Assembly (NCBI GenBank): GCA_964386535.1
Contig: CAYLRY010000001.1
Coordinates: 3,830-67,829, forward strand
DNA: 64,000 nt
Reading direction: 5' to 3'
Source of the DNA: an uncultured Dehalococcoidales bacterium
GTDB lineage: Bacteria > Chloroflexota > Dehalococcoidia > Dehalococcoidales > UBA3254
Numbering within the stretch: position 1 is the stretch's first letter; the number at the start of each line of letters is the position of its first letter. Under the pieces are notes generated by a model, which ran no database searches, was not told the origin of the DNA, and worked only from the letters and a program-made list of their open reading frames with translations. Both the position numbers and the translations under genes were made by a program. This document shows, one piece after another, positions 18,297 to 64,000 of this stretch.

Positions 18297-19556
18297 TTAA
18301 TCCAGTTTTCTTAAATGGGGCACAAAAATGAAAGTTACAGCCGAGATGAAAGTCAGGATTATAGCAAAGCTGCCAATAACCCATTGAACAGGCAGAGCCT
18401 CCACCATGAGACCCGCTACAAAGGCAAACAGACTGACCACACCCCATTCGAGCATAAGAATACTCATTACCCTTCCCATAAACCTGGGTTCGGTATAACT
18501 CTGCAATAAAGCGCTGCAGACTGTCCCCACTGTCTGACCGAGTCCCGCGAAGATAAAAAACATCATTGAAAGGTTCATGGAGGTTGAAAAAGAAAAGCCA
18601 ATCATTGAAAGGCCGGAAATAAGGCCGGTCACGATCAGCATAATCCCGCGTTTTTTCCCGCTCAGAGAGGCCATGATCAGGGAACCCACCAGCGCTCCGG
18701 CCCCGGAGACGCTGAGCAATAACCCCATTGCAGTGGCGCTGACTTTGAGAATATCATCTATAAAAATAGGCAACAACTGCTGCTGGCCGGGCATAGCCAG
18801 CATAATTACCACCAGGTTAAAAAGCAATACAAATAAAATGGTTCTGTCTTTACGCAGATAGTCCAGACCCTTCCTGATATCCCCCAGAATGTTGGCTCCG
18901 CTTTTTTCTATACGGCTGGTGTGCGGTACAAATAACAAAAAGACGGCCGCGTAAAGATTAAGACTGCCAATGGTCAAATAAACAGCCTGGAAATCAAAGG
19001 CATCGATTAAAAACCCAGCCACCCCAGGGGCTGCCAGACGTAAAACGTTCATTCCCAGCACGTTCAATGCTACGGCATTCATAGCCTGATCGCGGCTGAC
19101 TATTTCAGGGATGATGGACTGGCGCGCGGGTAATAATATACCCATGATGATTCCCTGCAGCAGTGAAGTGCCTATCAGTATCCAGGCTGAACCCGAATTC
19201 TCCCGGCTGATAATGCCAGCCATCAAGGCATAGGCAATGCCGAAAGAAACGGCTGTTGAGAAAAGCAGGCTGTATATCAGAACCCATTTTTTTTGCATTC
19301 TATCTGCAATGGCGCCTCCAAAGAGGGAGAAGATGATCATGGGAACAGCAAAGGTCAGAGCCATAGTGCCCAGCAAGGCGGATGAGCCGGTCACCCGGTA
19401 TATTAATAGAGATCCGGTGACTATCTGCATGTTCATGGAGGCAAATTGCCCCAGCATTCCCAGAAAATACAGGCGGTAGACCGGATGACGCAGAGAGCTG
19501 AAGGTCCGCAGGCCGATGGCGGTTAATAAATTGGGTTTATGAATTTTTTCCTGCAA
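18297..19556 (-). CDS. MFS transporter (paralog 1 of a tandem triplet)
   Basis: 12-TM pattern. Highly similar to the two upstream paralogs (..YRLYFLGMLGQFASMNMQ..GGAIADR..). Confidence 0.9.
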   Translation of the reverse strand: MQEKIHKPNLLTAIGLRTFSSLRHPVYRLYFLGMLGQFASMNMQIVTGSLLIYRVTGSSALLGTMALTFAVPMIIFSLFGGAIADRMQKKWVLIYSLLFSTAVSFGIAYALMAGIISRENSGSAWILIGTSLLQGIIMGILLPARQSIIPEIVSRDQAMNAVALNVLGMNVLRLAAPGVAGFLIDAFDFQAVYLTIGSLNLYAAVFLLFVPHTSRIEKSGANILGDIRKGLDYLRKDRTILFVLLFNLVVIMLAMPGQQQLLPIFIDDILKVSATAMGLLLSVSGAGALVGSLIMASLSGKKRGIMLIVTGLISGLSMIGFSFSTSMNLSMMFFIFAGLGQTVGTVCSALLQSYTEPRFMGRVMSILMLEWGVVSLFAFVAGLMVEALPVQWVIGSFAIILTFISAVTFIFVPHLRKLD

Positions 19557-19702
19557 TTTACTGATGCCTATTGTTAAATCCTTTTATCCGGAATTTCCGA
19601 TTTTTAAATATCGAGTTATCAACAAATCCAAATATAAAACATCATAACACGTCTCAATATCAGGCGATATTCCATTTTAAAGGCGATTTCACTTTTAAGG
19701 GA

Positions 19703-20959
19703 TTAATCCAACTTTCTAAGACGTGGTGAAAAGGCATAACTTAAAAAGGTGACAGCCAGCAGCGCAATCGCAAATCCCCCCACCACCCATTGTACCGGAA
19801 ATACTTCAGCCAGCATGCCGGCCATGAAAGTACATAGACTGACGACGCCCCACTGCATCATAAAGATGCTCATCACACGTCCCATATAGCCTGGCTCGGT
19901 ATAAGACTGAAGCAAAGCACTGGAGATGGTCCCACGTATAGTTGAGCCCAGACCTACGAATATAATAAAGACCAGGGATAGTGACCAGACGGAAGAGAAG
20001 GCGAATGCGATCAGGGACAGGCCGGAAACCAGACCTCCAATCAATAGAACCAGCCCGCGTTTCCTGTTTGGCAGAGCAGCCATAAGCAGCGAACCTACCA
20101 GTGCTCCAGCGCCGGAGACGCTGGAAAGCACCCCCAGACCGGTGGCGCCGACATGTAAGATATCATCTACATAAATGGGCAACAACTGCTGATAAGGCAT
20201 GGATAAAACTACCACCAGCAGTGTAAAGCCCAGAACCAGAAGAATAATACGGTCCTGGCGGATGTAGCGGTAACCCTCTTTGATATCATTCAAAATGTTA
20301 GAACTGCGGGTAATTACAGGAGAGGTATGCCGGATAAAGAGCATAAAAATGATAGCATAAACATTTAACCCGCCCATGGTAAAGAAAACGGCTTTAAAAT
20401 CAAAAGCATCCACCAGGAAGCCGGCCACAGCCGGCGCTGCCAGGCTCAGCACATTCATGCCGAGCATATTTAAGGCCACTGCATTCATCGCCTGGTCACG
20501 GCTGGCTAATTCCGGTATAATGGCCTGCCTGGCCGGCATGGTAATACCAAGGATAGTGCCCTGGAGAACTGAAATCAGGATTAAGATCCACCAGGATCCT
20601 TCATTTTCCTTGCTTATTATCCCAGTATATAAAGCGGTGGCAGTGCTGAAAGAAATCACTGCCGAACAAACCAGGGAGAATACCAGGACACGTTTTTTTT
20701 GAACGCGATCAGCAATAGCTCCGCCGAATAAAGATAATATTAAAGTAGGTATTGCCTGGGCCAGAGACATAGTTCCCAGTAAAGCGGACGATCCGGTCAA
20801 CCGGTAAATCAGCAATGAGTTGGCTATCATCTGCATATTTACAGCAGCAAACTGGCCCAGCATACCGAAAAAATAAAGGCGATAACCCGGGGATTGCAAT
20901 GAACTGACCGTTTTCAAACCAAAAGCATACAGGATGTTTTTATTGTTAGATGATTTCAA
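19703..20959 (-). CDS. MFS transporter (paralog 2)
   Basis: Same architecture and length (418 aa) as its neighbours. Confidence 0.9.
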   Translation of the reverse strand: MKSSNNKNILYAFGLKTVSSLQSPGYRLYFFGMLGQFAAVNMQMIANSLLIYRLTGSSALLGTMSLAQAIPTLILSLFGGAIADRVQKKRVLVFSLVCSAVISFSTATALYTGIISKENEGSWWILILISVLQGTILGITMPARQAIIPELASRDQAMNAVALNMLGMNVLSLAAPAVAGFLVDAFDFKAVFFTMGGLNVYAIIFMLFIRHTSPVITRSSNILNDIKEGYRYIRQDRIILLVLGFTLLVVVLSMPYQQLLPIYVDDILHVGATGLGVLSSVSGAGALVGSLLMAALPNRKRGLVLLIGGLVSGLSLIAFAFSSVWSLSLVFIIFVGLGSTIRGTISSALLQSYTEPGYMGRVMSIFMMQWGVVSLCTFMAGMLAEVFPVQWVVGGFAIALLAVTFLSYAFSPRLRKLD

Positions 20960-20976
20960 TTAATGAATCCTCTTCC

Positions 20977-22236
20977 TTAATCTACCTTCCTGAAACTGGG
21001 GACGAAAATCATGGCCAGGAGGGTCAGGAAGAGAAGCAAAAAAGCCAGACTGCTGACCACCCACTGCACCGGCATGAATTCAGCCATGATGCCGGCAAAA
21101 AAGGTAACCAGGCTGACGATACCCCATTCCATCATTAATATACTCATCACCCTTCCCATATACGGACCTTCCACATAGGTCTGCAATAATGCGCTGCTCA
21201 GGGTATTGCGCATAGTTTGACCGACGCCTAAAAATACCATAAAAAACAGGGAAAGCGTCCAAACAGTTAAGAAGGAAAAGCAGACCAAAGCTATGCCGGA
21301 GACAAGGCTGCTGGTGAGTAATAAAAGCCCTCTTTTCCGGTTAGGCAGGGTAGCCAGCACCAGGGAGCCCACCATTGCGCCGGCCCCGGAAACGCTTAAC
21401 AGCAGTCCCATGCCGGTAGCGCCTACTTTAAGAATATCGTCAACAAAAATAGGCAGCAATTGCTGGTATGGCATTGAAAGGACAACAGCGACCAGAGCCA
21501 GTCCCAAGATAAAAAGAATGGTCTTTTCTTTCAGGACGTATTTAAAACCTTCTTTTATATCACTTATTATATTATTTCCGCGGTTGGAGATATGACTGGT
21601 ATGGGGTACAAATAAAATAAAGAGCGCTGCATACAGGTTAAGTCCACACATGGCAAAATAAATAGATTTGAAATCGAATGCATCAATCAGGAATCCGGCA
21701 ACGCCAGGGGCCAGAAAGCGCAGGACATTCATACCCAGTGTATTTAAGGCTACGGCATTCAAAGCGCCTTCACGGCTGACAATTTCCGGTATAATAGATT
21801 GCCGTGCCGGCATCATCAGTCCCATTATGGTACCCTGCAAGAACGAAGACACCATGAGAATCCACCAGGAACCCTGTTTGTCTTTACTGAGTATTTCCAG
21901 CATCAAAGCCAGGCCTATTCCCAGTGCAACCACGGCTGAGCAAAATAAACCCAGCATCAGCACCCGTTTTTTCTGCATCCTGTCAGCCAGGGCGCCGCCA
22001 AAAAGGGATAAGAGGAGCATGGGACAGGCGTTGGCCAGAGACATGGTACCCAAAAGAGCGGAAGAACCGGTAAGGCGGTATATCAATAATGAGCTGGTTA
22101 CCTGCTGCATATTCATGGAGGCAAATTGCCCCAGCATACCCAGGAAGTAAAGACGGTAGACCGGATTTTGTAAGGAACTGAAGGTCCTGATGCCCAGGCT
22201 GGCGAATATATTTTTATGACCTTCGCTGTTGTTCAA
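20977..22236 (-). CDS. MFS transporter (paralog 3)
   Basis: Same architecture (419 aa). Only 17 nt separate it from paralog 2. Confidence 0.9.
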   Translation of the reverse strand: MNNSEGHKNIFASLGIRTFSSLQNPVYRLYFLGMLGQFASMNMQQVTSSLLIYRLTGSSALLGTMSLANACPMLLLSLFGGALADRMQKKRVLMLGLFCSAVVALGIGLALMLEILSKDKQGSWWILMVSSFLQGTIMGLMMPARQSIIPEIVSREGALNAVALNTLGMNVLRFLAPGVAGFLIDAFDFKSIYFAMCGLNLYAALFILFVPHTSHISNRGNNIISDIKEGFKYVLKEKTILFILGLALVAVVLSMPYQQLLPIFVDDILKVGATGMGLLLSVSGAGAMVGSLVLATLPNRKRGLLLLTSSLVSGIALVCFSFLTVWTLSLFFMVFLGVGQTMRNTLSSALLQTYVEGPYMGRVMSILMMEWGIVSLVTFFAGIMAEFMPVQWVVSSLAFLLLFLTLLAMIFVPSFRKVD

Positions 22237-53081: not shown

Positions 53082-53120
53082 TTAACATTCTTTTAACATT
53101 GCGTTAAATATCTCTTAAAC
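53082..53120 (+). promoter_or_regulatory. Pho-box array A (upstream of pstS)
   Basis: TTAACA (53082), TTAACA (53093), TTAAAT (53104), TTAAAC (53115): four hexamers spaced exactly 11 bp apart. Confidence 0.7.
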
Positions 53121-53318: not shown

Positions 53319-54239
53319 GTGACTTTCAGATGTAAAAGGAAGCGGCCCGGCTTCCTGTCATACATGCTGATTATGATATTGCTGCTTTTAAGCGCCTGTG
53401 ATAATGCGCCGATTAAAACGTCTGTATCTGACGGCGCCAGATCATCTACCATCCCCATCCAGACTCAAAACCGGAACACAACTACAGCCACAATCCTGTC
53501 CGGTTCCATATCAGAAGTAGGTTCGACCACGGTTCAGCCTCTAGCTGAAAAACTGGCGGCAGCTTTTATGGCGCTCAATCCCAACGTTAAAGTGGATATC
53601 AAGGGTGGTGGTTCATCAGTAGGCATCAAGGCGGCTAATGACGGTACAGCAGATATCGGGGCTGCTTCCCGTGAGTTGAACAGCGCAGATCCCAGCCTGA
53701 TAAAATTTCTGCTGGCCCATGACGGGATTGCCATAATCGTAAATGCAGGTAATCCGGTAAACGGGCTAACCAAAGCACAGATTACCGAGATTTTTACAGG
53801 TAAAATAACTAACTGGAGCCAGGTGGGCGGACCTGATAAAAATATTCATGTGGCTGCCCGTGAGGAAGGCTCAGGTACGCGAACAGCTTTTCAGGAACTG
53901 GTGATGGGAAAAGATGCTGCCGGAGCAGACATAAATATCGTGAAAAGCGCAATCCTGCAAAACTCCAGCGGAGCCATTATGCAGGTAGTCAAATCTGACG
54001 TCCAGGCCATCAGCTTTGACTCCTTTGGATACCTGAATAGTTCTGTAAAAGCCCTGGCGATAGAGGGTATTGAGGCTACTGATGAAAATGCCAGGAGCGG
54101 CATATATCCGGTGGTCAGACCTCTTTATTTTCTAACTAAGAACCAGCCATCCGGAGCGGTTGAAGCATTTTTCAAATTCTGTGCCGGATCCGAGGCCCAA
54201 CAGATAATAACCAACGAGGGATACATATCTGTACAATAA
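53319..54239 (+). CDS. pstS: Phosphate ABC transporter substrate-binding lipoprotein
   Basis: Basic n-region plus lipobox LLSAC. GSTTV..L, AREEGSGTR and YP..RPLYF are PstS/PBP_like_2 motifs. GTG start with GGAGGGG upstream. Confidence 0.9.
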   Translation: MTFRCKRKRPGFLSYMLIMILLLLSACDNAPIKTSVSDGARSSTIPIQTQNRNTTTATILSGSISEVGSTTVQPLAEKLAAAFMALNPNVKVDIKGGGSSVGIKAANDGTADIGAASRELNSADPSLIKFLLAHDGIAIIVNAGNPVNGLTKAQITEIFTGKITNWSQVGGPDKNIHVAAREEGSGTRTAFQELVMGKDAAGADINIVKSAILQNSSGAIMQVVKSDVQAISFDSFGYLNSSVKALAIEGIEATDENARSGIYPVVRPLYFLTKNQPSGAVEAFFKFCAGSEAQQIITNEGYISVQ

Positions 54240-54255
54240 AAATCAAATAACCGGC

Positions 54256-55170
54256 ATGCCCCGGGAGGCTCTCGGCAATCTCCCTGCCGCCAGGGCTGTC
54301 AACAGGTCCCGCTATTTTTCTGACCGTGCGGCCAAAACCGGAGTGCTCATATGCGCCACATCCTCTTTTCTGGTTTTACTGGCTATTATTATATTTATCC
54401 TGCAACAGGGTTTGCCGGCCTTTTTCCAGGTGGGTCTCTTAGATTTTCTTTTTGGCATTAACTGGAGTCCCTCCAATAGCCAGTTCGGGGTGCTGCCCAT
54501 GATAGTTGGATCACTGGCAGTAACACTGGGCTCTATGATTCTGGCGGTGCCTCTGGGAATCGCCTGCGCCATCCTGCTGGCGGAAGTGGCGCCCGCGGGT
54601 GTAAGACAGGTGTTAAGACCGGCAGTGGAGCTTTTGGTAGGGATTCCTTCCGTGATATACGGGCTGGTGGGCATAGGGGTGATTGTACCGGCAGTACGCC
54701 AGATAGGAGGAACCGGATACAGCATTGCTGCAGCCTGCATAGTGTTGATGGCCATGGTTCTACCCACTATTACCAGCATCAGTGAAGACAGCTTAAGGGC
54801 GGTCCCGCGGAAGTATAAGGAAGGTTCTCTGGCCATGGGAGCCACGCAATGGCAGACTATATGGCATGTTCTGATTCCCGCTGCCCGGTCAGGAATCGGG
54901 GCGGGTATAATTTTAGGAATAGGACGCGCCATAGGAGAAACCATGGCCATGATCATGGTAATAGGTAATGCGGTGATGTTCCCCACCTCTCTGCTGGACC
55001 CGGCACGGACTCTAACAGGTAACATCGCAGTAGAGATACAGTATGCCAGCGGGGTCCATGAAAGCGCCCTGTTTGCTACCGCAGTGGTTTTGCTGGCTTT
55101 TATCATCATCCTGAATTACTTCGCAGTAATTATTTTTAAGAGAGACATCAGTGGCCAGAGTAAATCCTAA
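54256..55170 (+). CDS. pstC: Phosphate ABC transporter permease PstC
   Basis: Six-TM permease with an EAA-like loop (..SEDSLRAVP...KEGS.A.GAT.WQ). Confidence 0.9.
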   Translation: MPREALGNLPAARAVNRSRYFSDRAAKTGVLICATSSFLVLLAIIIFILQQGLPAFFQVGLLDFLFGINWSPSNSQFGVLPMIVGSLAVTLGSMILAVPLGIACAILLAEVAPAGVRQVLRPAVELLVGIPSVIYGLVGIGVIVPAVRQIGGTGYSIAAACIVLMAMVLPTITSISEDSLRAVPRKYKEGSLAMGATQWQTIWHVLIPAARSGIGAGIILGIGRAIGETMAMIMVIGNAVMFPTSLLDPARTLTGNIAVEIQYASGVHESALFATAVVLLAFIIILNYFAVIIFKRDISGQSKS

Positions 55171-56002
55171 AACCAAACAAAAAGCAGCCAATTTGATTAT
55201 CTGGGCTGCCGGCGCTGTTACAGCCCTGATACTGATATTGATTATAGTCTATGTCCTGGTAAGGGGAATACCTTATATTACATGGGATTTCTTAATCACA
55301 GCGCCTAAGGGAGGTCTATCCGGAGAAGGGGGCATTTCCACCGCCATAGTGGCCACTGTTTACCTGATCTGCCTGACTATTGCTATTCTGATCATACCCG
55401 GCATCGGCACAGCTATCTGGCTGACTGAATATGCCAGGGACAACTGGCTGACAAAAGCAATCCGCTATGCCATTAACACGCTGGCAGGGGTTCCCTCCAT
55501 AGTCTTCGGACTCTTTGGTTTTGTTCTTTTTGTGACTGTATTACATTTTAATTTCTCCATTTTATCCGGAGCCCTGACGTTGGTCTGCCTGCTGCTGCCT
55601 ACGTTGATAAGCACTACTGAAGAGGCCATCCGGGCGGTACCTCAGTACCAGAGGGAAGCAGGGCTGGCTTTAGGCGCCACCAAATGGCAAACCATCTCCC
55701 ACGTTATCCTCCCGGCTGCTCTCCCCGGAATTGTAACCGGTATAATTCTCTGTATAGGCAGGGCCATCGGCGAGACAGCCTGTCTGTATGTTACCATGGG
55801 AGGCAGCGCTGCTATGCCTAACACTTTGCTTTCAGGCGGCAGGACGCTGGCACTGCATGTTTATTACCTGGCCACAGATACCAATGCATTTGATAAAGCC
55901 ATGGCTACTGCGGCCATATTGATCATTCTGATCATTATTATTAATACCTTTACCAACTGGCTATCTCAGCGCTTTCACGCCAGGCTGGTAGGAAGGATGT
56001 AA
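55151..56002 (+). CDS. pstA: Phosphate ABC transporter permease PstA
   Basis: ..TEEA.RAVP....[11 protein letters not shown]... There is a 20-nt overlap with pstC. Confidence 0.9.
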
Positions 56003-56003
56003 G

Positions 56004-56759
56004 ATGGATCCCAAGATTGAAACCAGGCAATTAAATCTGTATTACCGGAAAACTCTGGCGCTGAAGAAGATTGACATAAAGATACGTGAACATCAGATAA
56101 CAGCCATTATAGGGCCTTCAGGCTGCGGCAAGTCATCTCTGCTGCGCACCTTTGACCGGATGACGGACCTGACTCCCGGGGCAAGAGTGGAAGGCGAGGC
56201 GCTTTTGGACGGCAGTAATATCTTTGATCCGCTGGTAGACATAGTGGAATTGAGAAAAAGGGTGGGCATGGTCTTTCAGCAGCCTAATCCATTCCCCAAA
56301 TCAATTGCTGAAAATGTGGCTTTCGGACCCAGGATGCTGGGGTTAAATCATAAGAATAACCTGGAAGAGGTAATAGAAAAGAGCCTGCGCGCAGCAGCCC
56401 TCTGGGATGAGGTAAAAGATGATCTGAATAAATCCGGTCTGGCGCTATCCGGAGGACAGCAGCAGCGTTTGTGTATTGCCCGGGTGCTGGCCATAGAGCC
56501 GGAAGTGATTTTGATGGATGAACCCTGTTCGGCCCTGGATCCGATATCGACCCTGAAAATAGAGGAATTGATGGCTGACCTGAAAGAGAAGTATACTATC
56601 GTCATCGTGACGCACAATATGCAGCAGGCAGCGCGGGTTTCAGACTGGTCTGCTTTTATGTTACTGGGTGAAATGGTGGAATATGGTGCCACGCATGAAC
56701 TATTCAGCCGGCCAAAGGATAAGAGGACCGAAGATTATATAACGGGCCGTTTTGGCTAG
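56004..56759 (+). CDS. pstB: Phosphate ABC transporter ATP-binding protein PstB
   Basis: GPSGCGKS Walker [14 protein letters not shown] signature, and [10 protein letters not shown]. Confidence 0.95.
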
Positions 56760-56774
56760 AGGAGGGAAGTCAGG

Positions 56775-57440
56775 ATGCCCAGGAAGCTGTTTGATCAACA
56801 TTTACGGGAGCTTCAAGACCATGTGCTGGAGATGGGGAGCATGGTGGAAATAGCCTTGTACCGATCGATGGACGCCCTGAAAAACAGGGATCTGGATCTG
56901 GCCAGGCGGGTGATAGAGGAAGACCGTGAGATAGACCAGAAGAGGTATGAAATAGAGGAAGAATGTATTGACCTGATAGTAAGCCAGCAACCGCTGGCAG
57001 TGGACCTGAGGATCATCATAGCGGTATTGAATGTCATAGTGGACCTGGAGCGGATAGGGGATCATGCCGAAGGGACAGCCAAGATAGCGATAATGATAGG
57101 GGATGAACCGCCGTTAAAACCGCTGATAGATTTACCGAGGATGGCGGAGCTGACCGGTAGCATGTTAAAAAGGTCACTGCAGGCGTTTATACAACATGAT
57201 GCGGAGACGGCGCGGCATATATGTGCGGAAGATGATGTAATAGACAATTTATATGACCAGGTGTTCCGGGAACTGCTGGTGTTTATGGCAGAGGATCCCA
57301 AGACAATAACGCGGGCGACGCGGTTGATCTGGGTAGCGCACAATCTGGAGCGCAGCGCAGACCGGGTGACGAATATCAGTGAGCGGATTATTTACGTGGT
57401 TACGGGCAGCCGCAGCAGTATGATGGCCTCCAGGTATTAA
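56775..57440 (+). CDS. phoU: Phosphate signalling complex protein PhoU
   Basis: Duplicated PhoU repeats with E.D..ID and ..LERIGDHA / ..LER.ADR..NI motifs. Confidence 0.9.
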   Translation: MPRKLFDQHLRELQDHVLEMGSMVEIALYRSMDALKNRDLDLARRVIEEDREIDQKRYEIEEECIDLIVSQQPLAVDLRIIIAVLNVIVDLERIGDHAEGTAKIAIMIGDEPPLKPLIDLPRMAELTGSMLKRSLQAFIQHDAETARHICAEDDVIDNLYDQVFRELLVFMAEDPKTITRATRLIWVAHNLERSADRVTNISERIIYVVTGSRSSMMASRY

Positions 57441-57493: not shown

Positions 57494-58198
57494 TTATAAA
57501 TCAAGTTTATAGCCGAAACCCCTTACAGTGACAAGATATCGTGGACTGGCTGGATCATTTTCTATTTTTTCCCTTAACCAGCGGATATGCACATCAACGG
57601 TTCGAGTATCGCCTGCAAAATCATAACCCCATACTTTTTCCAGGAGGGTTTCACGGCTAAAAACCTGCCCGTGATTTTTTGCCAGAAAGGTTATCAGATC
57701 AAATTCTTTCCGGCTCAATTCAATAACCTGATTATTGATAGTAACAATATGCCGGTTAAAGTCAACTTCTATAGGGCCATGTTTTAAGGTTTGATCCGTG
57801 TCTCTGTTAGTATTAAAGGCTTTACTGCCAACCATATTTAAACGTCTGAAAGAAGCATGGACCCTGGCCAGCAGTTCCCGCAAACTAAAAGGTTTGGTTA
57901 TGTAATCATCAGCTCCTATTTCCAGTCCGACTATTTTATCGATTTCTTCGGTACGAGCGGTCAGCATAATTATGGGAACAGACATTTCTTTTCTAAGGAT
58001 ACGGCAAACTTCAAGGCCGTTCATATGGGGTAAATTAATATCTAAAAGAATAAGATCCGGCTTTTCGGCCCTGGCACTTTCCAGGGCCTGTACTCCATTC
58101 AGTGCTGCGATAACACTATAACCGTCTTTGGTTAAGTTATATTTTAAAACCCCCTGTAAAGTCTCATCATCTTCCACTACCAGCACTTTACCCGGCAT
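57494..58198 (-). CDS. OmpR/PhoB-family response regulator (PhoP/PhoB-like)
   Basis: Receiver domain (VLVVEDD...DLILLD) plus a winged-helix trans_reg_C domain (..L..KEF.L......N.G.V.SRE.L...VWG........RTVDVHI..LR.K). Confidence 0.9.
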   Translation of the reverse strand: MPGKVLVVEDDETLQGVLKYNLTKDGYSVIAALNGVQALESARAEKPDLILLDINLPHMNGLEVCRILRKEMSVPIIMLTARTEEIDKIVGLEIGADDYITKPFSLRELLARVHASFRRLNMVGSKAFNTNRDTDQTLKHGPIEVDFNRHIVTINNQVIELSRKEFDLITFLAKNHGQVFSRETLLEKVWGYDFAGDTRTVDVHIRWLREKIENDPASPRYLVTVRGFGYKLDL

Positions 58199-58286: not shown

Positions 58287-58325
58287 TTAACGGGAAATTA
58301 ACCATGCATTAAATCCAGGTTAAAT
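58287..58325 (+). promoter_or_regulatory. Pho-box array B
   Basis: TTAACG (58287), TTAACC (58298), TTAAAT (58309), TTAAAT (58320), spaced exactly 11 bp apart. The array lies ~90-130 nt upstream of the regulator start. Confidence 0.65.
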
Positions 58326-58376
58326 ATAAAAGATTACGGCAACCGCACTGATACCGGCTTCATTAATGACAGGCAA

Positions 58377-58437
58377 TTAACGAACAATTAATTAAGTTTT
58401 AACGAAATATTAACAGCAACATTATCAATCCTTAAAG
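58377..58437 (+). promoter_or_regulatory. Pho-box array C
   Basis: TTAACG (58377), TTAATT (58388), TTAACG (58399), TTAACA (58410), a degenerate ATTATC (58421), and TTAAAG (58432), all in 11-bp phase. The array lies ~100-160 nt upstream of the 58540 ORF. Confidence 0.65.
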
Positions 58438-60104: not shown

Positions 60105-60520
60105 AGATATTAATAATTATTAATCTTCAGTTAAAAACTTTACCTTCTAATCAGCCAATTTAAAAAACCATATGGTTTCATTTCCCTCCCCCCGAAAAAG
60201 GATACTGCACTCTGCAAGTTTACGGTACGTTTCCATGTAACCAAAATCCACTGTCAAATTGCCGCAAATGGATATGAAGTAACTGTACCAATCAGGTGAA
60301 AATGCGCAGGATCGGTTAGATTTATTTGATGGTAAAACGCAGGGAACTTTTAATATTGACTGTACTGCAAAAAGGTAGTATTTGAACGTTTTGGTCAGAA
60401 ATTTAGCCTCGGAAATTAGCATAAAACACAATTATAAGACCTTTTTGCACTTGAGCCAATATTGTCTTTTCTAGTCAATTCCAGGCTGTAATAATTTTGG
60501 CCTTTTTTGCGAATAAGGCC

Positions 60521-60559
60521 TTAACACCGTTTTAACAATAATTTATGCACAGCTTAAAG
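60521..60559 (+). promoter_or_regulatory. Pho-box array D (upstream of the dockerin-PstS gene)
   Basis: TTAACA (60521), TTAACA (60532), TTATGC (60543), TTAAAG (60554), spaced exactly 11 bp apart. Confidence 0.65.
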
Positions 60560-60883
60560 TCCTCATAATGTGCATATGCTAATATGGGCAATGGTGAAGG
60601 TTGACATCCATAGATCATCTACCCCAACAACTGAAGTATACATAAAGGTGCATAAAAGCAAAGGGAAGTCCTTAACGCTTCCGTCATCGTCCTTCAGACT
60701 TCCCCTGGCTCAGGTCGAACCCAAGCATTATCTAATTTTAACCCTGATACCCGCTGCAGTCAAGAAGCTTGGAGTGCACAATTACCGGAACGGGAGGGCG
60801 AGGAAAAGGAAAATAATCTTTTCAAATATGATTCAAGTCAGCAGAGCCGACATATTTATTGTGTAATAAAAGGAGGAGAATAA

Positions 60884-62083
60884 GTGGGTAAATTGTTATC
60901 CAGAATATTGGCGAAGAAATTCGTACTCACCGGTATTTTAACAGGTTTAATTTCAGCGGTAGTATTAGGTTCGACTCTGGTTTACGCGGGTTATGATACC
61001 CCAACATCCTTTCATTCTGATGCGCAACTAAGAATCTCCGGATCTACGACTTGCTGGCCCATGGTGAGATCCGCTCTGGGTATTGCAGATGCCGGAGGCT
61101 ATGGCACCAGCGGACCCTTCCAGGCTGCGTATGGAGCCTGCAAGGCTGAAGGATATGCCATCGGCTCAGACCAGGGCAAAGGTGATACCAATGGCACTTT
61201 AACCAGCGGAGTCAGCGTAAATGATGTTGGGATGTCTTCTTCTTCCAATTTTTCCGGCTTAACTAACATCGATGCTATACCTTTTGCTCGTGATGCTGTG
61301 TGCATCATCGTCAGTAACAATGTGTACAACGCCGGTTTACAAAGCCTTACCAAAGCGCAGGTAAAAGCTATTTTTGAGGGTTATAACGGAGACGGCACCG
61401 AAAATTCCAGCGGATATCAAACCTGGGATGATGTTCAAAGCGGGCTTCCCTCTGCCGGAATCAAGGTAGTCGCCAGAGAGACCAACTCCGGTACGCGCGG
61501 TTCCCTGATCGAAATGACCGGTATGCAAAAAGATAGTGAAGCTAGTGTTACCAGAGAAATGGCCACTGTGACTCACGGCGGCGTATCCAGACAGACGACT
61601 AGCGCTGCGATGGCTGTCACTGTTGGCCAGGCCGATAATCAGATCGGCTATGTCGGCCTGGACTACACGGCTGCTTTGGTGGGAGCTACCAGGATCAATA
61701 TAAAAGCAGATTCTAGCAGCCCGGCAGTATCCCCGACCGTACAAAATGTGACAACTGAGGTCTATCCGCTATCCCGCAAACTCTTTTTACTGAAAAATAA
61801 GAACGGCTCTCCGAACACGACCAACCGCGATAATTTTATTACTTTCATGCTGAGCAATGCAGGACAGAACATTGTTGAAGCCGAACATGATGTTCGGCTG
61901 CGTCCCCGGGAGGATGTGAGCGGCAACGGTACAATAAACGGTCAGGATGTGGGTTATATTGGTACAAAGTGGATGCAGACCGGCTCCCCCGGCTGGATAC
62001 CTGAGGATGTAGACCAGAATGGTACCGTCAACGGCCTGGATGTCGGTAAGATAGGCCTCTGGTGGATGCTCTCTTACAGCTAA
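60884..62083 (+). CDS. PstS-family (PBP_like_2) phosphate-binding protein with an N-terminal signal/anchor and a C-terminal dockerin-like module
   Basis: SGSTT, ARETNSGTRGS and YPLSRKLFLL align with the motifs of the canonical PstS at 53319. The C-terminus carries two EF-hand-like segments, DVSGNGTINGQDVGYI and DVDQNGTVNGLDVGKI. GTG start behind AAAGGAGGAG. Confidence 0.8.
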   Translation: MGKLLSRILAKKFVLTGILTGLISAVVLGSTLVYAGYDTPTSFHSDAQLRISGSTTCWPMVRSALGIADAGGYGTSGPFQAAYGACKAEGYAIGSDQGKGDTNGTLTSGVSVNDVGMSSSSNFSGLTNIDAIPFARDAVCIIVSNNVYNAGLQSLTKAQVKAIFEGYNGDGTENSSGYQTWDDVQSGLPSAGIKVVARETNSGTRGSLIEMTGMQKDSEASVTREMATVTHGGVSRQTTSAAMAVTVGQADNQIGYVGLDYTAALVGATRINIKADSSSPAVSPTVQNVTTEVYPLSRKLFLLKNKNGSPNTTNRDNFITFMLSNAGQNIVEAEHDVRLRPREDVSGNGTINGQDVGYIGTKWMQTGSPGWIPEDVDQNGTVNGLDVGKIGLWWMLSYS

Positions 62084-62158
62084 AGCAACCCGGGATTAAT
62101 CAGCGATGAAATCGATATGTTCGAAATTGAATTAGGAAAATAAAAAAGGAGGAATACC

Positions 62159-64000
62159 TTGAAATTACTCTGTCTATTATCCGGGCGGAGAAAGGTAATG
62201 GCTATAATACTTAGCCTATCGGTGTTGGTTACCTTGCTGGTGCCAGCCACGTCGGTTTTCGCAGCCAATGCTACCTCGGCGACTTTATCCATCACCGATG
62301 CGATCACAACACATGGAACATCTTTTGATGTCTATATTAAAATCACAACCAACGGCGATACACGGGGGTGGGAAATAAATCAGATCACATTTGATCCTTC
62401 CAAACTTCAATGTAATTCAGTGGTTCTGGGGACTACATACTATGCTGGTGCAAGTTCATTTGGAAGCAAGGCAATAGATAATACGGCCGGTACCATTGTC
62501 CAACTGGACCAAACATTAACCAGCACGGTTCAGGGAGCCATTACTGACGGTATTATAGCAACCATCAATTTTACAGCACTGGGCGATGCTACTTATGATT
62601 CCATTCATATTGTGCCGGATGCTATCAACACCTGGGTTCAAGACTCTAACGCCCAGATCATTACGAACTGCATACTGATCGATGGAACCGTCGCCATCGG
62701 CAGCGTACCTCCGCCGACAACTATCAGCAGCTTCTCACCAAGCAGCGGCGTAATTGGCACGGAAATAACCATTACTGGTACCAGTTTCGTTGGAACTCCC
62801 ACGGTGACGATCGGCGGAATTGCGGCTACTGATGTATCAGTAGTGAGTGTAACTGAAATAACCTGCAAAGTCGGCGCCGGCGCTGACGGCAAGGTAAAAG
62901 TCACCACTACCATCAACTCTGCTTATTCAGCTAATGATTTTGATTATCTGCCCCCCAGCAATATTACTTTTAGTCCTGCTGCCGCACTCAACGGAGCTAC
63001 TGTGCATGTTTACGGTGATAACCTCTCAGGCGCCATCTCAGTTACCCTGGGCGGTACTGCGGCTACAATAGTTAGCAATACCAATACCCAGATTGACGTC
63101 ACGGTTAACGGCGGCAGCTCAGGCCCGGTAACTGTTACCACACCCGGTGGTTCAGCCAGTTCTTCAACCAGCTTCGGCTACCTGGTACCGGCAACTATTA
63201 CTGGAATCAGCCCGGATACAGCCGGACAGGGAGCTTCAGTAGTCATCAGCGGTACCAATTTTGTTTCTCTCACCGGAACGTCAGCAGTCCAATTCGGTAC
63301 CATCGATGCCGCCAGCTACAGCGTTAACAGCAACTTCACCCAGATTACGGCTGTGGTACCTGATCTAGGCCCCTCCGCAGCGACTTTTAATATTACAGTA
63401 ACCACCGCTGCGGGGCCGGTTACACTGGAAAATGCTTTTCATTATGTTCTGGCAAGTATTAACACCGTTAACCCCACCTCAGCTTTCTACGGCGATACAG
63501 TAGTCATCAGCGGGTCCGGTTTCTCCGGAGTAACCGGGGCCAGCGCCGTCAAGTTTGGAGGGATTGATGCTTTAAGCTATACGGTAAATAGCTACTATAC
63601 CCAAATTACGGCTGTGGTGGGCGCAGGAGCTTCCGGCAACGTTGAAGTGGTCACCGGAAGCGGTACACTGACCAAAGAGGGTTTTATTTACAAGCAGATT
63701 TCCGTGGCACCAGCCCAGGTTACCAGCGGTGATACGTTTGATGTCAATCTGAATATAAATGCCAGCGGCAAAGCCATTCGCGTATGGCAAGCGGACGTGG
63801 CATTCGATCCCAACAAACTGGCCTGTGTAGGTATTAGCGAAGGTAGTTTCCTGAAGGCCTATACCAGGACAGCTTCAGTCTTGTTCACGGCGAGCAGCGG
63901 CAGCGGAGCCAAGGCCTTTGCCACGATCAATGATGCAGGCGGCATAGCCTCCGTTACCGTGACAGCCCAGGGTTCCGGTTATACTTCTGCTCCGGATGTA
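62159..64000 (+). CDS. Secreted scaffoldin-like protein: signal peptide, cohesin-like domain, 4x IPT/TIG, second cohesin-like domain (3'-truncated by the window end)
   Basis: My own translation gives 614 uninterrupted codons to the window edge. TTG start 5 nt after AGGAGG. The ORF is absent from the supplied track because it has no stop in the window. Signal ..LLVPATSVFA|ANA. Cohesin-like pattern (..F.V.I......I.....I.FDP.KL....V..G...). Four ~80-aa repeats of ..I....P..G..G..V.I.G..F.....V.FGG..A........T.I...VP. Confidence 0.8.
   Translation, partial: MKLLCLLSGRRKVMAIILSLSVLVTLLVPATSVFAANATSATLSITDAITTHGTSFDVYIKITTNGDTRGWEINQITFDPSKLQCNSVVLGTTYYAGASSFGSKAIDNTAGTIVQLDQTLTSTVQGAITDGIIATINFTALGDATYDSIHIVPDAINTWVQDSNAQIITNCILIDGTVAIGSVPPPTTISSFSPSSGVIGTEITITGTSFVGTPTVTIGGIAATDVSVVSVTEITCKVGAGADGKVKVTTTINSAYSANDFDYLPPSNITFSPAAALNGATVHVYGDNLSGAISVTLGGTAATIVSNTNTQIDVTVNGGSSGPVTVTTPGGSASSSTSFGYLVPATITGISPDTAGQGASVVISGTNFVSLTGTSAVQFGTIDAASYSVNSNFTQITAVVPDLGPSAATFNITVTTAAGPVTLENAFHYVLASINTVNPTSAFYGDTVVISGSGFSGVTGASAVKFGGIDALSYTVNSYYTQITAVVGAGASGNVEVVTGSGTLTKEGFIYKQISVAPAQVTSGDTFDVNLNINASGKAIRVWQADVAFDPNKLACVGISEGSFLKAYTRTASVLFTASSGSGAKAFATINDAGGIASVTVTAQGSGYTSAPDV
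62714..63691 (+). repeat. Four tandem IPT/TIG-like domain repeats inside the scaffoldin-like CDS
   Basis: Repeats start near aa 186, 265, 342 and 431 of my translation. Each ends in F.Y(L/V/K). Confidence 0.75.

What the first reader, a model, noticed from the sequence alone, without database searches (positions are those of the whole stretch)
62159..64000. A 614-codon ORF missing from the supplied ORF track
The plus-strand frame starting at the TTG at 62159 (AGGAGG at 62148-62153) is open for 1842 nt to the last base of the window. It translates to a coherent modular protein with a signal peptide, a cohesin-like domain (about 62279-62701), four IPT/TIG repeats (62714-63691), and a second cohesin-like domain (63695 to the window end). 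The track lists only short antisense ORFs here (62080-62307, 62638-62916, 63572-63790), which are almost certainly shadows of this gene. Any analysis based on the track alone would call this region empty.
Basis: seen in the sequence. Interest (0 to 1): 0.75.

Follow-up and report, generated by a model that had tools for sequence, protein, structure and literature searches.

The report
Truncated cohesin–TIG scaffold gene beside dockerin-tagged PstS-like protein
The open frame is a real gene, cut off by the window's end, for a secreted scaffold protein whose two cohesin "sockets" probably hold the neighbouring dockerin-tagged phosphate-binding-like protein on the cell surface, a use of cellulosome parts that has nothing to do with cellulose.

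Summary
The frame from TTG 62159 runs 614 codons to base 64000 with no stop. It is missing from the ORF list only because ORFs that run off the window are not listed. An AlphaFold model of cohesin 1 matches only solved cohesins.

The new result is the context. The gene 75 nt upstream (60884-62083) encodes a divergent PstS-like binding protein that ends in a two-segment dockerin, the only dockerin motif in the window. The pairing of a dockerin-tagged PBP with a scaffold recurs in three independent public loci, next to pst transporter genes in L007 and L024. A fourth locus, from a Dehalococcoidales MAG, links cohesin/TIG scaffolds, pst genes and other dockerin proteins. PstS-like-plus-dockerin fusions form a sizeable family (48 of the 60 nearest cluster representatives). 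A TTAACA-N5-TTAACA repeat occurs three times in 64 kb: before pstS, beside the response regulator, and before this gene pair.

Best reading: a non-cellulosomal cohesin-dockerin display system for a phosphate-binding-like protein, probably phosphate-regulated. Binding, ligand, anchoring and the gene's 3' end are not shown.

The parts
62147..62152 (+). Shine-Dalgarno AGGAGG, 6 nt before the start codon
Evidence: Read directly from the sequence.
62159..64000 (+). Coding sequence, 3'-truncated by the window end: 614 codons of a secreted cohesin-TIG4-cohesin scaffold protein
   Evidence: No stop in 614 codons. Pfam TIG 100 bits and Cohesin 50.1 bits. Aligns with the full-length relatives P0050 (732 aa) and P0048 (741 aa) from residue 1.
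62159..62263 (+). Signal peptide, aa 1-35 (MKLLCLLSGRRKVMAIILSLSVLVTLLVPATSVFA|AN)
   Evidence: This is the only hydrophobic stretch in the fragment (Kyte-Doolittle above 1.6 for the 19-residue windows starting at aa 10-20, i.e. aa 10-38). It has a basic n-region and a V-F-A cleavage motif, and is conserved in the relatives. Assigned by inspection; no signal-peptide predictor was run.
62282..62698 (+). Cohesin module 1 (aa 42-180), complete
   Evidence: Pfam PF00963 covers profile positions 2-139 of 139. The AlphaFold2 model has pLDDT 85.3. In Foldseek against the PDB, the top 50 matches are all cohesins, TM 0.77-0.83 to the C. cellulolyticum type I cohesin.
62714..63694 (+). Four IPT/TIG repeats (about aa 186-264, 265-343, 344-431 and 432-512), read as a stalk or spacer
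   Evidence: Pfam PF01833 gives 4 stretches, E 7.3e-29. Repeat boundaries were set by inspection. The window's copy has one more TIG than P0050 and P0048.
63695..64000 (+). Cohesin module 2 (from aa 513), cut by the window end at about profile position 104 of 139
   Evidence: Pfam PF00963 scores 31.7 bits on this fragment alone. It aligns with cohesin 2 of P0050 and P0048. It is only 35% identical to cohesin 1 over 51 aa.
60884..62083 (+). Upstream partner gene: a secreted, divergent PstS-like binding protein (399 aa) with a C-terminal dockerin
   Evidence: Pfam PBP_like_2 68.5 bits. NCBIfam matches only the PstS family TIGR02136, and below its cut-off. The nearest PDB sequences are all phosphate-binding proteins. 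It is 100% identical to P0121 on a 166,512-bp NCBI contig.
61913..62080 (+). Dockerin: two calcium-loop-plus-helix segments (DVSGNGTINGQD... and DVDQNGTVNGLD...) joined by the linker TGSPGWIPE
   Evidence: It is the only dockerin-loop motif pair in all six frames of the window. Pfam Dockerin_1 scores 22.6 bits against a 22.9 cut-off. It aligns, with an identical linker, to the dockerins of P0124 and P0125; P0125 is annotated PF00404. The structure model is low-confidence.
60521..60560 (+). Pho-box-like direct repeat TTAACAccgttTTAACA, overlapping a promoter-like site (TTAACA-17-TAAAGT), about 345 nt upstream of the binding-protein gene
   Evidence: It is one of only 3 matches in 64 kb, against 0.29 expected. 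Its function is inferred.
53082..53119 (+). Array of four TTAAM repeats with 11-bp spacing, upstream of the canonical pstS
58287..58415 (+). Arrays of TTAAC repeats with 11-bp spacing, in the intergenic region between the response regulator and the HAD hydrolase gene
   Evidence: (family D1).
53319..57440 (+). Context: the canonical pstS-pstC-pstA-pstB-phoU operon
   Evidence: Pfam and NCBIfam. PhoU is taken from the gene calls on L002.
57494..58198 (-). Context: an OmpR/PhoB-family response regulator
   Evidence: Pfam Response_reg plus Trans_reg_C. NCBIfam PhoB scores 230 bits, below its 296 cut-off.

Best explanation
Window bases 62159-64000 hold the first 614 codons of a real gene for a secreted, non-catalytic scaffold protein. 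Its order is signal peptide, cohesin 1, a stalk of four IPT/TIG domains, then cohesin 2. It is co-oriented with the gene 75 nt upstream and probably co-transcribed with it. That upstream gene encodes a divergent PstS-like solute-binding protein ending in a dockerin.

Proposed mechanism. After Sec export, the dockerin of the binding protein plugs, calcium-dependently, into a cohesin of the scaffold. The binding protein is then displayed on the cell surface at the end of a TIG stalk, instead of being lipid-anchored like the canonical PstS. The pair probably belongs to the phosphate-starvation regulon and serves capture of phosphate or a related oxyanion. A second, membrane-anchored cohesin-TIG protein (P0026) on the same contig, together with membrane-anchor proteins seen in related loci, would tie the assembly to the cell.

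Shown: the open frame, the domain identities, the cohesin fold, the dockerin motif, gene adjacency, conserved synteny in independent loci, and enrichment of the repeat motif.

Inferred: cohesin-dockerin binding between these two proteins, the ligand, Pho regulation, the mode of anchoring, and everything beyond base 64000.
For: - Gene and domains.
- Cohesin fold.
- Dockerin: the only one in the window sits on the immediately upstream gene. No plus-strand terminator-like site lies between the genes.
- Synteny with PstS-like cargo: a dockerin-tagged PBP_like_2 gene lies directly upstream of a scaffold in L007, L008/L009 and L024. The scaffold has Pfam-detected cohesins in L007 and L008/L009; in L024 Pfam finds no cohesin in it. 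L007 and L024 also carry pstC/pstA genes, and L007 carries pstB.
- Dehalococcoidales MAG locus L026: a 3,317-aa cohesin/TIG protein is followed by a lipoprotein-cohesin, a PstS-like lipoprotein, pstCAB and three dockerin proteins.
- Other cargo: other loci of the same cohesin family have other dockerin-tagged cargo directly adjacent (L010, L013, L014, L017, L018, L022).
- Fusion family: 48 of the 60 nearest 50%-identity cluster representatives of the binding protein have a C-terminal dockerin loop.
- Ligand: all PDB relatives are phosphate-binding proteins. The GS-TT and SGTR motifs are shared with the window's canonical PstS.
- Regulation: TTAACA-N5-TTAACA occurs 3 times against 0.29 expected, all next to pst or Pho-type genes or this pair.
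- Second scaffold: the paralogue P0026 has a transmembrane anchor, is on a contig of the same length as the source (166,512 bp), and is not inside the window.
Against: - The 3' end is not visible, so the gene could be frameshifted or far longer than its 732-741-aa relatives. Its full-length product is absent from the protein database although its neighbours are present.
- Pfam Dockerin_1 is just below its threshold (22.6 vs 22.9 bits), and the dockerin model is unusable (pLDDT 46).
- The binding protein is far below the curated PstS cut-off (96 vs 207 bits). It has SSSS where the canonical PstS has ASRE, so the ligand may not be phosphate.
- The Pho-like repeat lies about 345 nt from the start codon, and one shuffle in 100 also gave 3 matches.
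- The response regulator is not assignable to PhoB.
- A binding protein held at the tip of a four-TIG stalk is badly placed to dock on a membrane permease.
- Cargo in related loci is varied, so the scaffold family is not phosphate-specific.
Confidence: 0.6

Rival explanations
1. It is a general cell-surface display or adhesion scaffold. The cohesins bind dockerin proteins encoded elsewhere in the genome, and the PstS-like neighbour is only one of many cargoes or not a cargo at all. On this reading the function is adhesion or surface-layer organisation, not nutrient capture.
For: Related scaffolds pair with quite different cargo: Oxidored_molyb-like, BNR propeller, beta-helix/NosD-like, RCC1 and unknown. 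The two cohesins of the window protein are only 35% identical over 51 aa, which suggests different partners. TIG, CARDB and PKD domains are typical of adhesins. The ANME literature proposes adhesion roles (PMC5244752).
Against: The dockerin-tagged partner is always the immediately adjacent gene in the same orientation. The PstS-like cargo and the pst transporter genes recur together in independent loci. A Pho-box-like repeat precedes the pair.
Confidence: 0.25
2. It is part of a true polysaccharide-degrading cellulosome or amylosome-like complex.
For: Cohesin and dockerin are the signature modules. Structurally, cohesin 1 is closest to clostridial type I cellulosomal cohesins.
Against: The visible 614 aa hold no carbohydrate-binding module. 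No glycoside hydrolase was seen among the window ORFs scanned or among the dockerin cargo of related loci. The sole dockerin in the window sits on a solute-binding protein.
Confidence: 0.04
3. The gene is a pseudogene, or a fragment of a decaying gene. The long open frame is the intact 5' part of a disrupted gene.
For: No protein 90% or more identical to it is in the 5.8-billion-protein collection, although the neighbours P0121 and P0026 from the same NCBI contig are. Read assemblies break 450 nt into the gene.
Against: There are 614 stop-free codons with intact, above-threshold domains, a good ribosome-binding site and a signal peptide. The database absence has another likely cause: all 120 listed hits are 1,066 aa or shorter, and the 3,317-aa cohesin/TIG protein of L026 was not returned. 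This suggests a length limit, in which case the full protein would simply be long. The assembly breaks are expected from the TIG repeats.
Confidence: 0.08

Closest known systems
Cellulosomal scaffoldins of clostridia (CipA/CipC type, type I cohesin-dockerin)
   Same: It is secreted and non-catalytic, carries more than one cohesin, and has a partner with a duplicated calcium-loop dockerin. The cohesin 1 model superposes on the C. cellulolyticum CipC cohesin at TM 0.77-0.83 and rmsd about 2.5 Å.
   Different: There is no CBM, no glycoside-hydrolase cargo, and TIG spacers replace the usual linkers or X modules. Sequence identity to solved cohesins is only about 19-20%, and phmmer finds no PDB sequence match. 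The cargo is a solute-binding protein.
Non-cellulosomal cohesin and dockerin modules (Peer et al. 2009, FEMS Microbiol Lett 291:1, as cited in PMC8542988 and PMC5244752; Archaeoglobus fulgidus cohesin, PDB 2xdh)
   Same: Cohesin and dockerin occur in an organism and locus with no cellulolytic context. 2xdh is among the structural matches. This is the class the locus belongs to.
   Different: For that class, the function outside the cellulosome is stated to be unknown (PMC5244752). Here a specific cargo (PstS-like), a conserved operon layout and a link to pst genes are visible. I could not read Peer et al. itself, so I cannot exclude that it lists such a fusion.
Cellulosome-like complex proposed for Ca. 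Stygibacter (Cloacimonadota), PMC8542988
   Same: It is a scaffoldin-like protein plus dockerin-tagged secreted proteins, inferred from MAGs.
   Different: There the cargo is hydrolases (GH18, GH57, peptidases) and the scaffold carries CBM2/CBM3 and a type IX secretion C-terminal domain. Here the cargo is a binding protein and the spacers are TIG.
Canonical PstS of the Pst phosphate ABC importer (lipoprotein or periplasmic)
   Same: The partner protein has the PBP_like_2 fold family, the GS-TT and SGTR motifs, and phosphate-binding proteins as its nearest solved relatives. A canonical pstSCAB-phoU operon lies about 3.4 kb upstream of the partner gene (its phoU ends at 57440).
   Different: It is far below the curated family cut-off. 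It has insertions, no lipobox, and a dockerin in place of a lipid anchor.
WxL / WxL-interacting-protein surface complexes of lactobacilli and enterococci (resemblance partly recalled from memory)
   Same: In relatives, the scaffold ends in a conserved domain of about 150 aa. The next gene encodes a protein with a C-terminal membrane anchor whose N-domain weakly resembles WxLIP_PGBD.
   Different: All WxLIP matches are below the gathering score (24.0 bits at best against 27.3), and the C-terminal domain gives no WxL hit even at E = 10. None of this is visible in the window.

Membership tests
Cohesin (Pfam PF00963) | Sequence match at or above the curated gathering score | tested here: met
   50.1 bits against a 24.1 cut-off, 2 stretches, with module 1 covering profile positions 2-139 of 139. 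Module 2 on its own scores 31.7 bits.
Cohesin (Pfam PF00963) | Flattened beta-sandwich (jelly-roll) cohesin fold | tested here: met
   The AF2 model of aa 33-187 is all-beta with pLDDT 85.3. In Foldseek against the PDB, ranks 1-50 are all cohesins, with best TM 0.77-0.83 and rmsd 2.4-2.6 Å.
Cohesin (Pfam PF00963) | Calcium-dependent binding of a dockerin | not testable with these tools
   This needs a binding assay or a multimer model. Only adjacency and conserved synteny support it.
IPT/TIG (Pfam PF01833) | Sequence match at or above the gathering score, repeated | tested here: met
   100 bits against a 20.9 cut-off, 4 stretches.
Dockerin type I (Pfam PF00404), on the upstream protein | Sequence match at or above the gathering score | tested here: inconclusive
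   22.6 bits against 22.9, E 1.2e-4 on the isolated 58 aa. It aligns at 47-52% identity with the dockerins of P0124 and P0125; P0125 carries a precomputed PF00404.
Dockerin type I (Pfam PF00404), on the upstream protein | Two repeated segments, each a 12-residue calcium loop (D-x-[DNS]-x-[DN]-G-x-[IV]-[DN]-x-x-D) followed by a helix | tested here: met
   DVSGNGTINGQD at aa 344 and DVDQNGTVNGLD at aa 375, 31 residues apart.
Dockerin type I (Pfam PF00404), on the upstream protein | Dockerin fold | tested here: inconclusive
   The AF2 model has pLDDT 46.3. The predicted loop-helix-loop-helix order is as expected, but the model is too poor to search with.
Cellulosome (scaffoldin in the strict sense) | A carbohydrate-binding module on the scaffold and dockerin-tagged glycoside hydrolases as cargo | tested here: not met
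   No CBM in the visible 614 aa. The only dockerin protein in the window is PstS-like. Cargo in related loci are not CAZymes. The unseen C-terminus is untested.
PstS phosphate-binding protein (NCBIfam TIGR02136 / Pfam PBP_like_2), for the upstream protein | A score above the curated family cut-off | tested here: not met
   TIGR02136 scores 96.3 bits against 206.6, whereas the window's canonical PstS scores 228.5. The broader Pfam PBP_like_2 is met, 68.5 against 27. It is therefore PstS-like, not a certified PstS.
PstS phosphate-binding protein (NCBIfam TIGR02136 / Pfam PBP_like_2), for the upstream protein | Conserved anion-binding motifs | tested here: inconclusive
   GSTT and ARETNSGTR align with the GSTT and AREEGSGTR of the canonical PstS. 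The GAASRE motif is replaced by GMSSSS. Mapping these to ligand contacts rests on my knowledge of E. coli PstS.
Sec signal peptide (signal peptidase I type) | Basic n-region, hydrophobic h-region, A-x-A-type cleavage site, no lipobox | tested here: met
   K2, R10, R11, K12; a hydrophobic core at aa 10-38; VFA|AN; no Cys at the cleavage site. Assessed by inspection; no dedicated predictor was available.
WxL / WxLIP anchoring pair | A WxL C-terminal domain on the displayed protein and a WxLIP_PGBD domain on the membrane-anchored neighbour | tested here: not met
   This was tested only in relatives. WxLIP_PGBD scores 17-24 bits against a 27.3 cut-off, and the conserved C-terminal domain gives no WxL hit. 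It cannot be tested for the window protein, whose C-terminus and downstream gene lie outside the window.

The most novel reading that the evidence does not exclude
Dehalococcoidia-like bacteria build a phosphate-starvation-induced analogue of the cellulosome for nutrient capture. Dockerin-tagged PstS-like binding proteins are loaded onto cohesin-TIG scaffolds. Some of these scaffolds are free-standing with a conserved C-terminal anchoring domain, some are membrane-spanning, and some are lipoprotein-cohesins next to pstCAB. Together they form a layered antenna that concentrates phosphate, or a related oxyanion, at the cell surface and passes it to the Pst transporter. That would give non-cellulosomal cohesin-dockerin modules a defined physiological function and would be a new way of anchoring ABC-transporter binding proteins.
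Probability: 0.3. Interest if true: 0.75.

Novelty: new variant of a known kind. Interest (0 to 1): 0.55.

Why it matters
Cohesin and dockerin modules are widespread outside cellulolytic organisms, but what they do there is largely unknown (PMC5244752, citing Peer et al. 2009).

This locus and its relatives offer a concrete, testable case: a defined cargo, a defined scaffold encoded next to it, a plausible regulatory signal, and genetic linkage to a well-understood transporter. The cargo is a PstS-like binding protein from a fusion family that includes at least 48 of the 60 nearest 50%-identity cluster representatives.

If the interaction is real, it would be a new way of tethering the binding protein of an ABC importer, neither lipid-anchored nor free in a periplasm. 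It would also be a non-degradative use of the cellulosome assembly principle.

On the practical side, the case shows that ORF lists which drop genes running off a window edge can hide the most informative gene of a locus.

Tried and rejected
**Extending the contig**
- Exact look-ups of three complete neighbouring proteins found only short read-assembly contigs of 1.4-3.7 kb from SRR10178537 and SRR10178538. L001 ends 450 nt into the gene.
- The species-representative genome scan found only a 35%-identical Poribacteria locus.
- An exact 53-mer from the window's end is absent from the JGI metagenome contigs.
- P0026 and P0121 are recorded on a 166,512-bp NCBI contig, but that contig is not in the gene-position index.

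**Protein searches**
- The first whole-fragment search was swamped by TIG repeats; the best hit was 41% identical.
- A search with cohesin 2 alone found nothing.

**Other dead ends**
- The dockerin structure model had pLDDT 46 and was not used for a fold search.
- phmmer of the scaffold against PDB sequences gave no hit.
- The conserved C-terminal domain of the relatives has no Pfam family, including WxL, even at E = 10.
- Rfam and tRNA scans of the window found nothing.
- The 98-codon ORF 60570-60866, in the long leader before the binding-protein gene, has an implausible translation and no support. I treat it as non-coding.
- The sample accession does not appear in the paper library, and Peer et al. 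2009 is not held.
- The organism could not be established. The only hints are the best named hit and the closest named locus, both Dehalococcoidales MAGs.
Full report
**1. The observation**

The plus-strand frame starting at TTG 62159 is open for 614 codons, to the last base of the window. The nearest in-frame stop upstream is TAA at 62141, and the TTG is the first possible start after it. It is preceded by AGGAGG at 62147-62152 with a 6-nt spacer.

By my arithmetic, a random frame of this length with no stop has a probability of about 1e-13.

The long ORF is missing from the mechanical ORF list only because that list omits ORFs that run off an end of the source. The gap is a tool artefact and the gene is real.

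**2. What the protein is**

- Pfam finds IPT/TIG (100 bits, four stretches) and Cohesin (50.1 bits, two stretches), both far above their gathering scores. The second cohesin fragment alone still scores 31.7 bits.
- The N-terminus has a basic n-region, a single hydrophobic core (aa 10-38) and a VFA|A site with no lipobox. No other hydrophobic segment occurs in the 614 residues.
- Two full-length relatives (P0050, 732 aa; P0048, 741 aa) align from residue 1. This supports the TTG start.
- An AlphaFold2 model of cohesin 1 is confident (pLDDT 85.3). Its 50 best matches among solved structures are all cohesins. The best are the C. cellulolyticum type I cohesins (TM 0.77-0.83, rmsd about 2.5 Å, 19-20% identity), and the non-cellulosomal Archaeoglobus cohesin 2xdh is in the list.
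- The two cohesins of the protein are only 35% identical over 51 residues.

**3. The neighbour**

The gene ending 75 nt upstream (60884-62083) encodes a 399-aa secreted protein.
- Its body is PBP_like_2 (68.5 bits).
- Its only NCBIfam match is the PstS family, but far below the cut-off (96 vs 207 bits). The window's canonical PstS passes.
- Its nearest solved relatives are all phosphate-binding proteins.
- It shares the GSTT and SGTR motifs with the canonical PstS but not the ASR motif.

Its last 56 residues are two dockerin-type calcium-loop-plus-helix segments. This is the only such motif pair in all six frames of the window.
- Pfam Dockerin_1 is marginal (22.6 vs 22.9 bits).
- The segment aligns, including an identical TGSPGWIPEDV linker, with the dockerins of unrelated cargo proteins. 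One of these carries a Dockerin_1 annotation.
- The structure model of this segment was too poor to use.
- No plus-strand terminator-like site separates the two genes.

**4. Is the pairing conserved?**

Yes.

*Loci with PstS-like cargo*
- The two relatives that combine TIG and cohesin lie directly downstream of a PBP_like_2 protein with a C-terminal dockerin (L007 and L008).
- L007 continues with a membrane-anchored protein, a membrane-spanning cohesin-TIG protein, a lipoprotein-cohesin, a PstS-like lipoprotein and pstC, pstA and pstB.
- L024 repeats the order: PstS, PBP-dockerin, scaffold, membrane-anchor homologue, then pstC/pstA. Pfam finds no cohesin in that scaffold.

*Loci with other cargo*
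- A TIG-free profile of cohesin 2 retrieved 15 metagenome loci.
- Wherever enough flank exists, cohesin genes of this family sit next to one or two dockerin-tagged genes (L010, L013, L014, L017, L018/19, L022).
- The cargo there differs: molybdopterin-oxidoreductase-like, BNR propeller, beta-helix or unknown. The spacers differ too: CARDB, PKD or Big_3_5.

*Dehalococcoidales MAG (L026)*
- A 3,317-aa cohesin/TIG protein with a membrane anchor precedes a lipoprotein-cohesin, a PstS-like lipoprotein and pstCAB. Three dockerin proteins follow.

*Size of the fusion family*
- An exhaustive HMMER search shows that the PstS-like-plus-dockerin fusion is not a one-off. Of the 60 nearest 50%-identity cluster representatives, 48 carry a C-terminal dockerin loop.

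**5. Regulation**

The window holds a canonical pstSCAB-phoU operon (53319-57440) and an OmpR/PhoB-family response regulator (57494-58198, minus strand) a few kilobases upstream.

The direct repeat TTAACA-N5-TTAACA, allowing one mismatch, occurs three times in 64 kb against 0.29 expected:
- at 53082, before pstS;
- at 58399, beside the response regulator;
- at 60521, before the binding-protein gene, where it overlaps a promoter-like site.

Longer arrays with 11-bp spacing mark the first two sites. The arrangement resembles Gram-positive PhoP boxes (my knowledge). Control by phosphate limitation is an inference from this.

**6. What cannot be seen**

The window ends within cohesin 2. By analogy with P0050 and P0048, the remaining part would be about 40 aa of cohesin plus a conserved C-terminal domain of about 150 aa. 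That domain is shared by the scaffolds of L007, L008, L013, L017 and L024. In each of these, the next gene is a homologue of a membrane-anchored protein whose N-domain weakly resembles a WxL-interacting protein, below threshold.

The protein could equally be much longer, like the 3,317-aa L026 protein.

Its full-length product is missing from the protein collection, although its neighbours P0121 and P0026 from the same 166,512-bp NCBI contig are there. Every listed hit was 1,066 aa or shorter and the 3,317-aa protein was not returned. I therefore suspect a length limit rather than a pseudogene, but this is unproven.

P0026 has the order signal peptide, cohesin, TIG×4, linker, membrane helix, cytoplasmic tail. 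It is orthologous to L007's 694-aa protein and is not inside the window, so it probably lies further along the contig.

All attempts to fetch the contig failed.

**7. Mechanism and rivals**

The best-supported reading is a non-cellulosomal cohesin-dockerin display system.
- The exported PstS-like protein docks through its dockerin on a cohesin of the co-transcribed scaffold and is held on a TIG stalk at the cell surface.
- The pair is probably induced by phosphate limitation.

The main rival is that the scaffold is a general display or adhesion platform and phosphate has no special role. The varied cargo of related loci supports that rival. The recurrence of PstS-like cargo with pst genes, and the repeat motif, argue against it.

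A true cellulosome is very unlikely: no CBM and no glycoside hydrolases were found. A pseudogene cannot be excluded without the 3' end.

An open problem for the uptake model is geometry. A binding protein at the tip of a stalk cannot easily reach the membrane permease. The membrane-proximal lipoprotein-cohesins seen next to pstCAB in L007 and L026 may matter here, but that is speculation.

**8. Novelty**

Non-cellulosomal cohesins and dockerins are known. One review states that their function outside the cellulosome is not known (PMC5244752), and another paper infers hydrolase-bearing complexes in Cloacimonadota (PMC8542988).

Full-text searches found no paper linking dockerins to PstS or to phosphate-binding proteins. 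The key census (Peer et al. 2009) could not be read.

I rate this a new variant of a known kind. As an ORF-calling point the finding is trivial. As biology it is moderately interesting, because it makes the function of such modules testable.

Noticed in passing
window 53082-53119, 58287-58415, 60521-60537: TTAAC(A)-type direct repeats with 11-bp spacing. They occur only upstream of pstS, in the intergenic region between the response regulator and the HAD gene, and upstream of the dockerin-tagged binding-protein gene. They are candidate Pho boxes of this organism.
   Followed up: partly
window 60105-60883: An unusually long (about 780 bp) AT-rich region with no credible gene, before the binding-protein gene. 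The 98-codon ORF 60570-60866 translates implausibly, and Rfam finds nothing. It may be a long leader or regulatory region.
   Followed up: partly
window 18297-22236 (minus strand): Three tandem paralogous MFS transporters of 418-419 aa (MFS_1/MFS_3, 'transmembrane secretion effector' type), all with TTG starts.
   Followed up: no
Source contig, outside the window (protein P0026): An 892-aa paralogue: signal peptide, cohesin, TIG×4, Thr/Ser/Pro linker, transmembrane helix, and a cytoplasmic tail ending ...EYEKSKETRK. It is recorded on a contig of the same length (166,512 bp) as the window's proteins and is orthologous to the 694-aa protein of L007.
   Followed up: partly
L026 1-569 and upstream (Dehalococcoidales MAG GCA_016927955.1, contig JAFGLR010000164.1): A 3,317-aa protein with alternating cohesin and TIG modules and a C-terminal membrane anchor, directly upstream of a lipoprotein-cohesin and pstCAB. 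Only its last 189 residues were fetched.
   Followed up: partly
L007 2230-2809, L008 3500-3954, L024 8540-8992, and the C-termini of the L013 and L017 scaffolds: A conserved domain of about 150 aa with no Pfam family (…NV.sNt.WQ…dQ…G.D…F.Q.v.ysDPv…Y.I.vtFtA). It ends the scaffold and is always followed by a gene for a membrane-anchored protein with a sub-threshold WxLIP_PGBD-like N-domain. This may be an anchoring pair.
   Followed up: partly
One search hit list: All 120 listed homologues are 1,066 aa or shorter, although much longer TIG/cohesin proteins exist (for example 3,317 aa in L026 and 1,840 aa in L012). The protein collection may be length-limited, so absence of long proteins from it should not be over-read.
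   Followed up: no
L006 (Ca. Poribacteria MAG OZ220722.1) and L012: Giant proteins (1,406, 1,556 and 1,840 aa) that carry both a cohesin of this family and C-terminal dockerin loops in the same polypeptide. They could act as adaptor-type scaffolds.
   Followed up: no
L026 5764-7977: An RCC1-repeat beta-propeller protein with weak N-domain matches to purple-acid-phosphatase and PhoD, and a C-terminal dockerin, encoded just after pstCAB. It may be another phosphate-related cargo.
   Followed up: no
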